Source: Treponemataceae bacterium
Lineage (GTDB): Bacteria; Spirochaetota; Spirochaetia; Treponematales; Rectinemataceae
Length of the DNA stretch: 64,000 nucleotides
Direction of reading: 5' to 3'
Assembly: GCA_963678065.2 (NCBI GenBank)
Contig: CAXXVZ010000005.1
Location: forward strand, 1,088,001-1,152,000
Position 1 is the first letter of the stretch. Each line of letters opens with the position of its first letter. A program made the position numbers. Below, piece after piece: positions 33,001-51,000 of this stretch.

Positions 33001-36000
33001 CTAAAAGAGTTCTTGCCATATGATGTATCCTTGACTGGCTGGATTCCTATTACCGCTGAAGGGCGTATAAGTTTTATTGACTACCCCGGACTCAGCATTT
33101 GGCGCGGTCTGTCTCGGATCTTTATTGTGAATTGCTTCCCATGTCGTACCGGGAGCAGAGGCATCCACGATCTGTTTTGTTACTTCATCGCCTATCTGCC
33201 CTACGCCGTAGTTAACATGATCATTTGGCTTTTCATATGAGTAAAAATTCAAAACACCTGCATCACCTTGTCTGTTTGTATTTACATCCTTAAATTTTCC
33301 AACAAAATTCGAGTTTGCCATACCATTTGCAGTTAGGCGGTCAACGTCTGCTCCCATGGCCCTAAGTGAACCTATACCTACACCACTACAATCAGCTTTT
33401 GTTGTTGTGGTTCCCGAGCCATACTCTACGCCAACATATTCTCTAATCTTTTCCGCAAACTGCAAATTTAGGTCTGTGGGGCTTCTTAGTGAATTTGTAT
33501 CCCGATCATAGAATTCATCGCCGTACAGCTGAGCACCTTCAATCTCCCGCAACCCTGTCGGATCTGTGGACTTTACTGGATTCTCGCCCCGCTGTTTTTC
33601 TTCTCCACGAGCCACCTCCCCGGTTTCGGTTTTTTTGGTCTCAGCGAGCGAGGCATAGAGCAGATACAGCCACAGCGCCTCGGTGAAGGTCTGCAGCCAC
33701 CTCCGGAGAAACCCTTCCACTACGAGCAGTTCCACAGTCAGCTTGACGTGCTGCTGTGGCAGGAGAAGGGGCGCGCACCGCATGAAAGAGATTCTATCCT
33801 GGCCGACCTTCCGGGACAAGGCGGGCGAGCCTTTTGATATAGTCCCTGTCCACCTCCGCATAGATCGCCTGCTCCCTCGGGTGGTAGCGCCGATAGATCC
33901 GCTTAAGGTTCTCCGTCACGACGTGCGTGTACCGCGCCGTCGTCTCGACTCCTGCGTGACCCAAGAGTTCCTGGATCTGGCGCACGCTCACGCCGCGGCT
34001 TAAAAGATGGGTCGCGGTGGCATGCCGGACCGAGTGGGCCGACAGGGTCGGGTCGTCCATACCGAAGCGCCGCAGGAGGGTTCGGAAACGCTCACTCACA
34101 CTCGCTGGCCTCACATGGCTCCCTGTCCTCGGTCCGCAGGTCCCCGTGAATATCCAGGCCTGCGGATCATGGGCGCGGTTCCCGAGGTACAGAAGCAGCA
34201 CATCCCGCGCGACCTCCGAGATCGGCACGAGCCTGTCCTTGTCACCCTTGCCCCGCACGCGCATGATCCGGCGCTCGAAGTCCACGTCGCCCACCGTAAG
34301 GCCCGCAACTTCGCCCACACGAAGGCCAGCCGCGTACACGAGCTCGAAGAGCGCGCGATCCCGCAATCCCTGCGTCGTCGTCGTATCGAGCTCGTCAAGA
34401 AAGCGCTGCATCTCCGTTTCTGTGAACGCGCGGCGGCGTACAGACTCCGGGGGGAGCGGATCACCCAGTTGCCCGGCGGGGTTGTCGTCGATAAGCCCTG
34501 AGCGGTACAGACAGGCGTACAGAAGCCGTACCATCCCGAAGCGACTATTGACCGTCGTGTGCTTAAGCCGTTCTCCCGTCGTCTTCGACAGTCGCGCCGC
34601 GAGATCCTCGCGGTAGCCAAGGAGCTGCGCCGGCGTGACCTGACGTATATCGCCTATCGCGTGCTCTTCGGTCCAGCGGTAATACCCTATGATCGTAGCA
34701 CGCGCGTGGGCCATGTAGCACGCGCCGATCCGCCTGGCCACGAGGTCCTCGCTCACCAGGTGCAGTCCCAAAGCTTGTACGGCCTCGCCAGTCACGATCG
34801 GAACTCCCAGCTTCCGCGCGGGTGCGCCGCGTCCACCGCCGCGCGCAGGCTCTCCTTGCTCCGCCGCAGGTAGGTCTGTGTGCTGCCTAAGTTCCGAAAC
34901 CCGACCAAGATTTGCACGTGCCGAAGGTCGCAGCCTGACTCGACCAGGTGCGCCCCCAGGCTCGTCCGAAAGCCGTAGCTTGTGATCATCGGCAATCCCT
35001 CACTCGCACAGGTCTCGGCCAAAACCTCGTTGATCACCTGAGTCAGCCTCCCGTGCCCCGCGCCGAAGAGCGTGTGCGCATACCTCCGCTCGTACTCGTG
35101 AAACACAAGTTTCCGTCGCGGCAGATACTCCTTGAGCACCCCCGCCGCGTAGCTCGTCAGGAAGGCCGTCCGTCCCTGCCCCGAGCGCCCGCTCCGAACC
35201 CACACTGTCCGCTCGCGAAGATCAAGGTCAGCCGGTTCGAGCGCGGCCGCCTCACTCGCGTGCAAGCCCGCAGCGTACATGAGTTCCGCCGCCACGTGCA
35301 CCCGATAGGTCTTTACCACCTTCCACCACGGCCGCACCTCATCGAAGCGCGACAGGGCCGCAAGGAGTCTCGCCATCTCCTCGACCGTCAGCGCATTCTC
35401 CGACAGATGCTCTCCCACCCGCACCCGACGGATCTCGCGGAAGGGATTCGTCCGTATCGTCCCCGTCTTCACGAGGTAGTCGAAGAACCGCCTGGCCGCT
35501 TTCAGATGGTTGTTGATCGTCCCCGCGTTGTACGGCCGCCCTGTCGCTGCTGTCATCGTCGACAGCTTCACCTGGTAGCGCAGAGCCTCAGCAAGCCCTA
35601 CCTCCGCAACCTCGAGTTCCTCCGCTTCCAGCCATGAGCCGACGGTCCGCGCAAGCGTGCGTATCGACTCGTAACCCTGATCAGTTACCTTCGGCTGTTC
35701 TTCAGCGAGAAAGGCTTCGATCTGCGCCGAAAGCCGTACGGAGTATATGCCATCCACGTTCGCCTCTCTTCCCCGCCGGAATTGCGCGACCAGATTGGTA
35801 ATTCCTTGTCGCGCCAGGGGCAACACTCGCTATCGGTAGTCAGTGCCCAGTTCTGCCCAGACTGACCAGATTTATGCCGTTGATCCGGAGAGTCGTTCTG
35901 CCATCGCCTCAGGACTCGGAATCATCGACAGATCCACCGCCCCAATCTCCGCGTCCTCGCGAAGCCGGTAATAGGCTCGCGAGCGTTCCGAGCCCCCTCG

Positions 36001-48000: not shown

Positions 48001-51000
48001 CCTTTAGCCTCTCAGAAAATAAGGGCCAAGCCAAACTATTCGGTAAATAGTCGATCCATAGTTCTTTGATTTCTGAAAGGTCAGAGGACCTAATAAGCCC
48101 ATCTCCCTCTTTCGTCAATTTCACCAATGAAAACTCAAATGGCATTTCAGAAACACCATCGATCTCTGAAATCAACTCATGTGCCAACCGAGTTCCTTCT
48201 GGTGCAAACGCACTTGCTACTGGCGTGGAATCTGCACCACCAAATAGATAGTAATTCATCATTGCCACCAAGCTTTTCTTAACATCCCAGGGTTTTCTAT
48301 AACTGGAGTCTTTACATATTGGTTGAACAATTCAAGGAACTTTGCCTGACTAGTTCCGGCGCCAACCGCTGCATCTTGCATACCCTGTTGAACAAAATCA
48401 TGATAGGCATCTGGATGTCGGCCTAAATGAGGCATCAACTCTTTGTTCCATGCTTCATCCAGCTTCAGTCCAAATTTCTCTGCAATATCTTCCATTTGTT
48501 GGGTAAACTTAGAGTTTTTATTAGTTGCAAAGTGATGAAGTTGTTCTTCGTAAATTAAGCAATAATCATTCAATAAATTGGCAACATTATTTCCATATAG
48601 CAGTCTCAGTACAGAATCGCTAGCATTGTTCATCCCCTGCAGGAGAGAACCGACTGCTTTTGCTACATCTTCAATAACCTCCCTTCTTCCTTCTGCTCTT
48701 TCTGCTTTCTCAAATTCCTTGACCCTATTTTCAGAATCCCCACTCGAAGCACTCAATTTGCCATTATTATCAGATAAAATGTGCCCGCCATGGTGATCAT
48801 CATCTACTTCATGAGCTAGTCCCGAGGGATCTGTGAACGAGAGCGGATTGTTGCCACAGTAGACGAACCAGTTGCCCCCATCCCTGACCGGGTCCTCAGA
48901 GTAGAACCTCCCCGCCACACAATCATAGTACCGCGCATTGAAGTAGTACAGTCCCGTCGCGTCTCGCTCCTTCCCCGTGTACGACACATCCTGACTCCCG
49001 TCGTACCCGTTGTAGTTCGTCACCGTCGAGCCACCCCACACCGCATAGTCGATCTTCGCCTTCACCGTCCCCGCCGTGTCCGTGACTGCCCTCCGCGATC
49101 CCAGGTTGTCCTGCCACACGTACTCTAGCCGCTCCGTGTTCCCCACGTAGTCCTTCACGTACCGTCCGACTTCCATACCCCCAAGCCGCACGTTCACCTG
49201 CGCCGTCTTCCACGTGCTCCCCTCCATCCTCTCCTTCAGCAGTATCTCGTTCCCCTCGTACACGTACAGCGTCGTCGTCACCGCTCCCGTCGTCGACGTC
49301 TCATCTTTCCGATACCGCAGCCCGTCCGGGTAGTACCGATAGCTGTCCGTCTGCGTTCCACCTGCGTTCCTCGCCAGGTCTCCCATACCCTCCAGCCGCC
49401 CGTACACGTCCCACGTAAGGCTCGCGTACCGGTTCTGCACACCCGTCACCCACCCCCGACTCGCGTCGTCCGTCACGGCTTGCGAACTCGGATGCGTGAT
49501 GTTCCGTAGGAGCATGCTGTTCACTCCCGACACCGGCGCATAGCCATAGCTCGCCGGATCTGTCCCCGTCGACTGTGTCAGGTTCCCGATCGCGTCGTAG
49601 CCGTAGCTTGTTCCCCCTCCCGTCGACAGGCGGTTCATCCCGTCGTACCCGTAGCTCACCCCGTCCCGCCCCGTCACGTTCCCCATCCGATCGTACGTGT
49701 AGCTCCCGTCGCACAGGCTCCCCGGATTGTCCACCGAACTCATTCGCAGCCACGTGTCGTACCCGTACACCGCCGTTCCCCCCGACGTCCCGTACGATAC
49801 CGCCGTCCGTCCTCCCCAGAACGACAGTCCTGTCCGCCCTAGCAGGTTCGACGAACTGTCCGACACCGACAGCGTGTTCGTGTTCCCGCCATACCCTGTT
49901 CCGCCGAAGTACGGTGTCGCATAGTTCACGGCCTTCGCGTACCCACCAAACCCCGTCACCGTCACACTCGCCGGATTGTTCGCCAGGTCGTAGGTCCTCA
50001 CTACCGTCGCCGTCTTCGACCCCGCCTGAGTCGGGACGGTCCGACTCTCTTTGGCCGGTATCCCGTTCACCCCGTATTCCCACGCCACCGTCTGGCTCGG
50101 CGTCGATTCACCCCCTCGCTGCTCAGCCACCGTGGCCGGACCATACTGGCAGTACGCGCTTGTCACTACGAGCGTCGCGGGCTGCGGGCTCCTCGTCGAC
50201 GCTGTCGTCCTCGTCCGCTCCATCCCCGCCTTATTGTACGTGTAACTCACTGTGTCGCCGTTCAGCTCCGTCGCGACACGCACCCGTCCGTCCGGGTAGT
50301 ACGTGTTCGACTTACTCCCCCGCCCCATAGGGTAGCTTTCCGTCTGCAGCCGTCCCGCACGCGTGTACACGTACGTGTACGCTTCCCCGTTCGGCATCGT
50401 CTTCGACGTCACCTGTCCCGTAAAATTATAAGCGTACGACGTCGTCCGGCTGTTCCCTCCCCCGTTCGTCCCGTCCCACTGGATCTCCGAGCTTGTCCGT
50501 CCCAGCCAGTCTTTCTGCGTCCTCGTCCTCGTGTACGTCGACCCATCCCGGTACCTGTCCACCGTCACCGTGTTCTGGCTGTCGTCGTAGGCCGTCGCCA
50601 CCATCGTCACCTGTGAGCCGGAGCTCGGCCCCGACTGCACCTGCACAGGCCGCCCCAGCACATCGTAGCTGTAGCTCGTCACAAGTTGCGTCGAAAGACC
50701 TGCGTCCAGATACACCGTCTCGCTCTTCACGAGCGATGGCATCGCCATATCCCACGTCTTCACCACCTTCCCGATCGCCACCTCTCCTGACCCCGTGTAT
50801 GTCGCGTCCCTGCTCGCCGTATCCGGCTTGTACGGTATCTCCTGCAGAAGCCGTCCGTAGAAATCGTACCGCGATTCGGTGCGGAATCCTTTCCCGTCCG
50901 TCGCCGTCGACCACAGTCCATTCGTGTCCTGCCCATACTCGTACCGCCCGAGTGTCGTCTCTGTCCCGCTCACCACCCGTGACTTCTTCGTCACTCGTCC

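What a model noticed while it worked through the whole genome (the two positions that open the first line are those of the whole stretch)
33550..48849. Dual-recombinase elements sit at the Rhs core end and carry displaced toxin tips
Downstream of the Rhs gene g04362 and its immunity gene lie two copies of a 5.3-kb module (XRE HTH, 94-aa protein, 579-aa ATPase, two tyrosine recombinases). Each copy ends exactly at an AATCC that opens the NPxxxxDPxG core-end motif of a different orphan toxin tip with its immunity gene. This is the layout expected if the module swaps Rhs tips by site-specific integration at the core end rather than by homologous recombination.
Evidence so far: Copies 96.8-98.9% identical; identity stops at the tip. 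Junctions at C5:1130343 and 1121582 share only AATCC and the DP codons with the Rhs core ends at 1136849 and 1157354; upstream they are element sequence, with no core homology. Same module in 4 other spirochaete bins; L105 has Rhs core end, tip, then HTH-94aa-ATPase-recombinase pair in the same order, L107 has a core fragment and tip after the pair.
(Added by a program. Inside this text positions count along the whole contig: contig position 1,088,001 is position 1 of the stretch shown here. "Call 12" and the like, gene names such as g00115 and contig names such as C1 are that model's own, and its searches are not shown. The text may have been shortened before it was handed on; [...] marks where a part breaks off. 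The agent that wrote the report below was given it as the finding of a first reader that could run no searches.)

Follow-up and report, generated by a model that had tools for sequence, protein, structure and literature searches.

The report
Mobile elements that swap toxin tips
Two copies of a small mobile DNA element sit in the tail of a bacterial Rhs toxin locus, and relatives in three phyla start and stop at a fixed point near the end of such toxin genes, where the element likely integrates with its own recombinase, giving the toxin a new toxic tip and pushing the old tip and its immunity gene downstream.

Summary
The exchange point is 11-13 bases past the AATCC, not at it. The mobile unit includes the tip and immunity gene upstream of the module. 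Of the 21 closest scoreable relatives, 16 stop at the same NPxx|xTDPxG codons (1.3% by chance). Tandem dimers in Brucepastera and Aureibacter show all three predicted joints (core|X, module|X, module|Y), sharing only 3 and 8 bases. A single-recombinase relative (ATPase 36% identical) occurs in 56 of 5,426 E. coli genomes. There, empty and filled alleles differ by a 16.7-kb insert between 15-bp direct repeats, with the old tip displaced unchanged. Other relatives end at CdiA VENN motifs. The ATPase is MCM-like; longer forms carry a primase. Best reading: a widespread integrative element that swaps polymorphic-toxin tips by site-specific recombination. No free circle or recombinase activity was shown. 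In this window the first recombinase lacks catalytic residues and copy 2 is broken. The literature models tip exchange by homologous recombination and notes integrases near orphan tips, but ten searches found no description of this element. Six look-ups in this scan found no earlier report.

The parts
48259..53805 (-). Rhs1, 1848 aa; target gene, now carrying tip A (AHH nuclease family)
   Evidence: TIGR03696 core at aa 1587-1663; AHH PF14412
48817..48849 (-). Left junction (attL-like) in the NPLS|FTDPSGL codons; core sequence through +12 (48838), cargo tip from +13 (48837)
   Evidence: Rhs1 and Rhs2 identical through +12, differ from +13; unitig break at 48838
47663..48262 (-). Immunity gene for tip A (Imm11); inferred cargo of copy 1
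   Evidence: PF07791
47300..47590 (.). Conserved non-coding left flank of the module; also behind tips B, C, D and behind Rhs2
   Evidence: Repeat families D3-D5; BLAST; no Rfam family
46892..47299 (+). XRE-type HTH regulator, divergent from the module operon (start read from the sequence)
   Evidence: HTH_3 PF01381
46369..46653 (-). 94-aa ORF, DUF5659-like (lead only); many relatives have ParA in this place
   Evidence: Atlas score 0.91, family on 17-18% of members
44633..46372 (-). 579-aa MCM-like AAA+ ATPase, predicted helicase; lacks the primase part of longer relatives
   Evidence: Model pLDDT 67; all 35 listed fold matches are MCM; relatives carry CHC2-Toprim
43553..44587 (-). Recombinase A, 344 aa; R-K-H-R-H-Y pocket reads H-R-Y-R-F-Y, likely inactive
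   Evidence: PF00589; 71 of 76 first recombinases are canonical
42555..43556 (-). Recombinase B, 333 aa, canonical catalytic residues
42552..42580 (-). Predicted outward sigma-70-type promoter (TTGTCC-17-TAGAAT) facing the displaced tip and immunity gene
   Evidence: same pattern in 22 of 25 loci, 0.34 expected (pattern chosen after seeing the loci)
42344..42544 (-). 67-codon leader in the element's right end, in frame with the displaced tip
   Evidence: Aligns with L071 with one 3-base gap; several relatives have a stop before the motif
42311..42343 (-). Right junction of copy 1; element sequence through about 42332, tip from 42331
41439..42331 (-). Tip B (TNT-family NADase domain) and 89-aa putative immunity gene
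   Evidence: PF14021
33570..41270 (-). Module copy 2; ATPase gene interrupted by IS21
36172..38604 (+). IS21-family element (istA, istB)
   Evidence: IstB PF01695; inverted repeat I5
33550..33582 (-). Right junction of copy 2; tip from about 33570
32495..33570 (-). Tip C (NlpC/P60-like, lead) and putative immunity gene
   Evidence: Atlas score 0.90; no Pfam hit
31932..32400 (-). Relic of a third element: left flank joined to a right end, module genes missing
   Evidence: Matches right ends of L071, L078, L096, L112
30859..31932 (-). Tip D (Amidase_6/CHAP) and putative immunity gene
   Evidence: PF12671
29930..29971 (.). 42-bp copy of a tRNA 3' end; likely far end of a 42.5-kb island holding both Rhs genes
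   Evidence: 100% match to the tRNA at C5:1160444-1160485

Best explanation
The two modules are copies of an integrative element, bounded by a site inside the Rhs core-end motif and made of a toxin tip, its immunity gene, a regulator, an MCM-like ATPase and two tyrosine recombinases, which likely recombines site-specifically into that site so that its own tip is fused in frame to the core and the old tip is pushed behind it. Shown: the anatomy, the fixed end point, the three joint types in dimers, and an empty/filled allele pair in a relative. Inferred: the element's recombinase does the exchange; a circular form is the intermediate; the helicase (with primase in long forms) replicates it; an outward promoter keeps the displaced immunity gene expressed. 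Repeated integration would give the window's order: core-A, element, B, element, C, relic, D. In this lineage recombinase B is predicted to do the chemistry, with A a binding partner or decayed.
For: (1) Of the 26 element ends with the highest recombinase-B profile scores (470 or more), 5 were too short; 16 of the other 21 stop at the NPxx|xTDPxG codons with no core upstream, 2 keep a longer core piece, 3 scored none (one of these, L083, has the motif with a short tip frame). Chance is 38 of 3,000. (2) Brucepastera parasyntrophica complete genome: a 9.5-kb unit repeated at 99.76%; joints core|X, module|X and module|Y share only GGT at +11 to +13, and 1,288 bases of tip X and immunity are identical. 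(3) Aureibacter plasmid pAT2 (Bacteroidota, two recombinases): 8,169-bp dimer at 99.98%, same three joints sharing TATGGATT. (4) E. coli relative, ATPase 36% identical over 467 aa: strains JNE151685 and A34 have the tip fused to the core; SCU-113 has 16,714 bp inserted between 15-bp direct repeats, flanks about 99% identical, old tip unchanged for 1,354 bases. 13 of 14 right ends in eight filled E. coli loci stop at that DP codon (the exception is the rearranged L195). (5) Junction position follows the recombinase tree: 17 rows need 3 changes against 15.6 shuffled. (6) Other relatives end at CdiA VENN codons or inside FHA/TpsA genes. (7) Groundwater runs X1 and X2 hold a close module and core, with other sequence starting where tip A would begin.
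Against: No joint for a circle or an excised chromosome in contigs of four runs holding this locus. The 8.8-kb circular record NZ_CP055112.1 joins two modules inside the primase gene, which fits homologous loop-out or a collapsed repeat, not site-exact excision. E. coli R12 versus MP1 differ by one unit whose join lies in shared right-end sequence. In the window, core and element share only G-T at the inferred point plus imperfect flanks. Recombinase A is degenerate, the primase is absent and copy 2 is broken. The E. coli recombinase is single and falls in a different clade from recombinase B, so that evidence is for the family, not for this copy. Closely related ends land at three different core positions (L089/L093/L095, L094/L098/L099, L100). 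L163 has no Rhs nearby, and copies in eight Leptospira-like loci are followed by ParA/ParB. Dimers could be assembly errors. An empty/filled pair does not give the direction of the event.
Confidence: 0.8

Rival explanations
1. The element is site-specific but carries no tip of its own: it lands in the core end as a conserved target, and new tips arrive afterwards by homologous recombination between core on one side and module on the other.
For: Tips turn over faster than module or core. Ordinary orphans with core homology lie in the same arrays. R12/MP1 show recombination within shared module sequence.
Against: Module|X joints in two dimers put the tip inside the repeated unit. The E. coli insert includes the new tip between the direct repeats. 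In the filled loci read through the left junction (window, L150, L154, L156, E. coli) the core continues into a tip, never straight into the module.
Confidence: 0.12
2. Homologous recombination with circular intermediates (Jackson et al. 2009) plus tandem duplication built the array, and the recombinase module is a passenger that happens to sit between tips.
For: This is the published model (passages). Many distant relatives keep 10-170 core codons behind the module. The circular record L184 fits it.
Against: That model predicts core pieces of variable length. Here 16 of 21 close relatives keep none and stop at one codon, and dimer joints share 3 and 8 bases, too few for RecA (established knowledge).
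Confidence: 0.06
3. The layout is an assembly artefact of repeats.
For: Two near-identical 5.3-kb copies; no contig spans the locus.
Against: Module depth is about twice tip depth in runs X6 and X8, and contigs run from module end into tips. The layout recurs in unrelated complete genomes.
Confidence: 0.02

Closest known systems
C-terminal displacement of rhs tips (Jackson et al. 2009, PMC2935791; passages read)
   Same: Incoming tip replaces the attached tip by one crossover with a circle; old tip and immunity gene are shunted downstream.
   Different: [quoted passage not shown] Here the point is fixed, homology is 3-15 bases and the unit encodes recombinases and a helicase.
SymE-cHTH-Prim-Hel neighbourhoods (Kawano et al. 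2007, PMC1891008; passages and section 13 read; figure not visible)
   Same: Names the primase/MCM-like helicase gene with cHTH and SymE beside RHS and haemagglutinin genes; this is the left half of the proteobacterial element.
   Different: Treated as a toxin-antitoxin context; the words recombinase and integrase do not occur in the text; no element ends or tip exchange. The window's copies have no annotated SymE.
Integrases beside orphan tips (Ruhe et al. 2016, PMC4927057; Steele et al. 2017, PMC5727410; Zhang et al. 2012, PMC3482391; passages read)
   Same: Note integrase or XerC/D genes among orphan CT/immunity modules and suggest site-specific recombination or capture.
   Different: No element, gene set, attachment site or empty allele was defined in the passages read; supplements were not seen.
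PICMI satellites (Barcia-Cruz et al. 2024, PMC10803314; abstract and passages read)
   Same: Minimal 6-kb integrative element with tyrosine integrase, regulator and primase, no packaging genes.
   Different: PICMI needs AlpA and the fis site; this element has XRE, an MCM-like ATPase, one or two recombinases, and rewrites the 3' end of its target gene.
Shufflons (Rci, Rin; recalled)
   Same: A tyrosine recombinase changes the C-terminus of one gene at a short site.
   Different: Shufflons invert resident cassettes between inverted sites; here sites are direct and the cassette travels with the recombinase.

Membership tests
Site-specific integrative element (tyrosine recombinase) | Encodes a tyrosine recombinase with intact catalytic residues | tested here: met
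   Recombinase B canonical; A degenerate in the window but canonical in 71 of 76 first recombinases
Site-specific integrative element (tyrosine recombinase) | Fixed ends with a short core shared by attL, attR and attP | tested here: met
Site-specific integrative element (tyrosine recombinase) | Empty target site in conspecific genomes | tested here: inconclusive
   Met for the E. coli relative; no empty allele seen for the window's own element
Site-specific integrative element (tyrosine recombinase) | Free circle with attP joint | tested here: inconclusive
   attP-type joint seen only inside dimers; none in contigs of four runs; L184 is not site-exact
Site-specific integrative element (tyrosine recombinase) | Recombinase-dependent excision or integration | not testable with these tools
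   needs bench work
Homologous C-terminal displacement (Jackson 2009) | Orphan tips keep core fragments of variable length | tested here: not met
   None kept in the window or in 16 of 21 close relatives; kept in distant relatives at lineage-typical lengths
PICMI | int, alpA, primase (DUF3987/DUF5906), integrated at fis | tested here: not met
   No AlpA hit; ATPase is MCM-like; site is inside Rhs
PICI / P4-like satellites (features recalled) | Capsid-remodelling or packaging genes | tested here: not met
   Module has five genes, none of that kind; ATPase has no match in 50,697 phage records
PICI / PICMI | Mobilised by a helper phage | not testable with these tools
   route of transfer unknown
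Integron (features recalled) | IntI-type integrase | tested here: not met
   TIGR02249 scores 48 and 88 against a cut-off of 265
Chromosomal XerC/XerD and IMEX (features recalled) | Host XerCD acting at dif | tested here: not met
   Scores below XerC/XerD cut-offs; apart from host Xer-like proteins in the tree; target is Rhs
RIT elements (features recalled) | Three recombinases between terminal inverted repeats | tested here: not met
   Two recombinases; no inverted pair of 25 bases or more at the module ends
Shufflon (features recalled) | Cassettes between inverted sites | tested here: not met
   All tips and junctions are in one orientation

The most novel reading that the evidence does not exclude
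A large, unrecognised class of self-replicating integrative elements (at least 1,769 ATPase clusters at 50% identity with E below 1e-30, most without known context) re-arms Rhs, CdiA and other polymorphic toxins across phyla: each lineage's recombinase targets one conserved codon near the core end, delivers a new tip in frame, and supplies a promoter that keeps the displaced immunity gene on.
Probability: 0.65. Interest if true: 0.93.

Novelty: categorically new. Interest (0 to 1): 0.87.

Why it matters
How polymorphic toxins acquire new tips has been explained by homologous recombination through a circle whose origin Jackson et al. left open. This element supplies a candidate enzyme, a site and a vehicle. 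It explains orphans that have no core homology, and it is testable in E. coli strains whose empty and filled alleles are named here. A recombinase that fuses a cargo in frame at a short, codon-tolerant site could also be a protein-engineering tool.

Tried and rejected
Crossover at AATCC: rejected, since element and core arms stay distinct through +11. Idea that a dead first recombinase is a family trait giving single-strand exchange: rejected, 71 of 76 are canonical; only the window, L071 and L072 share the altered pocket. Circle or excision joints: none in X6, X8, X9, X10 or X1-X4; contigs drop rare forms, so this is no evidence of absence. Small circular records as excised elements: L184 is not site-exact; L183 (Lonsdalea, 11.3 kb, one whole and one partial module, two tips) could not be judged without its chromosome. 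Rfam: one chance hit in 20000-54000. Phage records: no ATPase match. Close relatives of the genome: 1 of 60 has a recombinase-B match at E below 1e-50. In one search four partial or frameshifted ends (L091 first, L096, L112, L154) were added because they showed the motif; they are left out of the 16 of 21 count (with them it is 20 of 25). The tree is the quick version; labels were set by hand and rows without downstream sequence were left out. Paper searches found no description of the element. Passages of PMC3150448, PMC11278526, PMC10539506 and PMC13183296 describe none either. Scan look-ups found no earlier report.
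Full report
Observation. The window lies on contig C5 of a 5.27-Mb genome whose relatives are spirochaetes. On the minus strand an 1848-aa Rhs gene ends in an AHH-family tip with an Imm11 gene. Behind it come a 5.26-kb module, a TNT-family tip with a small gene, a second module broken by an IS21, a third tip, a short relic and a fourth tip. The copies are 98.9% and 96.8% identical. A second Rhs gene, 91% identical, lies outside the window with its own tip, the module's left flank and no module.

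Where the element ends. Counting from the first A of AATCC, the two module junctions agree through +13 and the two Rhs cores through +12, while core and junction differ at +6, 7, 9, 10 and 11. Element sequence thus runs about 12 bases into a mimic of the NPxx codons. Unitigs from runs holding the locus break at 42331 and 48838, the same points. The relic before tip D matches the right end of the element in L071 at 38 of 40 bases, so a third element once stood there.

Close relatives. A metagenome scan gave 79 loci and a genome scan 19. Of the 26 ends with a recombinase-B profile score of 470 or more, 5 were too short. Of the other 21, 16 stop at the same codons with no core upstream, 2 keep a longer core piece and 3 scored none; chance is 38 of 3,000 windows. 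Many of these ends read R-P, K-P or N-R where the core has N-P, which marks those bases as element sequence. More distant lineages stop before YYNARWY, GARY or TGKE, or in non-Rhs toxin genes. On a quick tree the position follows the recombinase (3 changes against 15.6 shuffled for the window's class); kin share labels, so this shows clustering only.

The unit includes the upstream tip. In the complete genome of Brucepastera parasyntrophica a 9.5-kb unit is repeated at 99.76%. Its joints are core|tip X, module|tip X and module|tip Y. The left arms switch by +10 and the right arms at +14, leaving GGT shared; 1,288 bases of tip X and its immunity region are identical. An Aureibacter plasmid has the same three joints around an 8,169-bp dimer, sharing 8 bases. 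A Pseudomonas plasmid shows core|X and module|X in a TpsA gene. The middle joint is what a circle of the unit would carry. Homologous recombination cannot easily make it (established knowledge).

Empty and filled alleles. Longer forms of the ATPase carry CHC2 and Toprim primase domains and match 42 plasmid records. The E. coli form is 36% identical to the window's ATPase over 467 residues, has one recombinase and SymE, and occurs in 56 of 5,426 genomes at 200 places. Fetched copies lie at Rhs loci beside ansP-pptA and ybfA-ybgA; one is in a rearranged region. 13 of 14 right ends stop at the DP codon of DPIGL. Strains JNE151685 and A34 have no element and carry, fused to the core, the tip that lies behind two elements in SCU-113. 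The difference is 16,714 bp between 15-bp direct repeats; flanks are about 99% identical and the displaced sequence first differs at base 1,355. In an Enterobacter plasmid three tandem elements each end at VENN codons behind cdiA. The E. coli recombinase is not sister to recombinase B, so this supports the family's mechanism rather than this copy's.

Machinery. The ATPase model (pLDDT 67) matches MCM helicases in all 35 rows listed. Recombinase B is canonical. Recombinase A has lost four of six catalytic residues; only L071 and L072 share three of these changes, and 71 of 76 first recombinases are canonical. A TTG-17-TA..T pattern at the stop of the last recombinase occurs in 22 of 25 loci against 0.34 expected; I chose the pattern after seeing the loci, and it was absent from the four non-spirochaete ends checked. 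In the window and L071 a 66-67 codon leader is in frame with the displaced tip. Both would keep the displaced immunity gene expressed; neither is shown.

Mechanism. Shown: fixed ends, cargo inside the unit, three joint types, one empty/filled pair. Inferred: a circle [tip, immunity, module] recombines with the core end, fusing its tip in frame and displacing the old one; repeats build the array; helicase and primase copy the circle, and ParA in many relatives fits an extrachromosomal phase. How it moves between cells, and how it gains new cargo, is unknown. Homologous recombination also acts in these arrays.

Against. No circle or excision joint was seen in contigs of eight runs. The circular record L184 joins two modules inside the primase gene. 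The window's copies may be dead: no primase, altered recombinase A, IS21 in copy 2. L163 has no Rhs nearby, and eight loci of one spirochaete group, Leptospira-like by the plasmid hits, carry ParA/ParB instead of a tip. Site choice is not absolute among termite-gut-like relatives.

Known work. Jackson et al. [quoted passage not shown] Hagan et al. 2023 still give homologous recombination as the route (passages). Kawano et al. 2007 drew the SymE, cHTH and primase-helicase genes beside RHS and haemagglutinin genes without a recombinase. Ruhe et al. 2016, Steele et al. 2017 and Zhang et al. 2012 note integrases near orphans and suggest a role (passages). PICMIs are the nearest in anatomy. Ten full-text searches found no description of the element. 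The library lacks most subscription papers, and I saw no supplements or figures; Zhang's Additional File 1 and Kawano's Fig. 7A may show the gene set.

Verdict. A real feature, and one member of a large family (1,769 clusters at E below 1e-30; 31 of 401 genomes of the phylum). Site-specific tip swapping is the best explanation (0.8). It fails the membership tests for PICMI, PICI, integron, IMEX, RIT and shufflon, and works like an integrative element that rewrites the 3' end of its target. Interest 0.87.

Noticed in passing
window 29930-29971 and 21334-21373; C5:1160444-1160517: Copies of a tRNA(CAT) 3' end suggest a 42.5-kb island holding both Rhs genes, and a second nested island ending at 21334.
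   Followed up: partly
window 53893-63774 and C5:1152383-1158001: A type II secretion-like cluster (secretin, GspE, F, G) lies between two divergent, 91% identical Rhs genes with signal-like N-termini; similar clusters lie beside the element in L099 and L165. Possible dedicated export route.
   Followed up: no
C5:1157354-1158899: Rhs2 has its own tip and immunity gene followed by the element's left flank but no module; likely scar of a lost element.
   Followed up: partly
L186:11513-11717: The Enterobacter element's right end gives a 70-codon open frame with a lipoprotein-like signal (judged by eye) fused to the displaced VENN tip.
   Followed up: no
L036-L043, L050, L051, L064: Single-recombinase relatives followed by ParA/ParB and no toxin tip, often in tandem; a plasmid-like branch of the family.
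   Followed up: partly
L102, L108, L136; L127, L130; L033-L035, L044, L045: Elements end at conserved motifs of three non-Rhs toxin-like gene families that were not identified.
   Followed up: no
L183 (NZ_CP072857.1): An 11.3-kb circular record from Lonsdalea populi consists only of element genes, two Rhs tips and immunity genes; candidate free circle or collapsed repeat.
   Followed up: partly
L073, L134, L183, L186, L202: Toxin-antitoxin-like gene pairs often sit between the last recombinase and the right end.
   Followed up: no
window 48798: Run X10 has a contig at very high depth joining tip A to sequence absent from the genome; unexplained.
   Followed up: partly
window 43742-44006: The two copies differ in a short patch of recombinase A, and runs X6 and X8 each show only one version; gene conversion or bubble collapse.
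   Followed up: no
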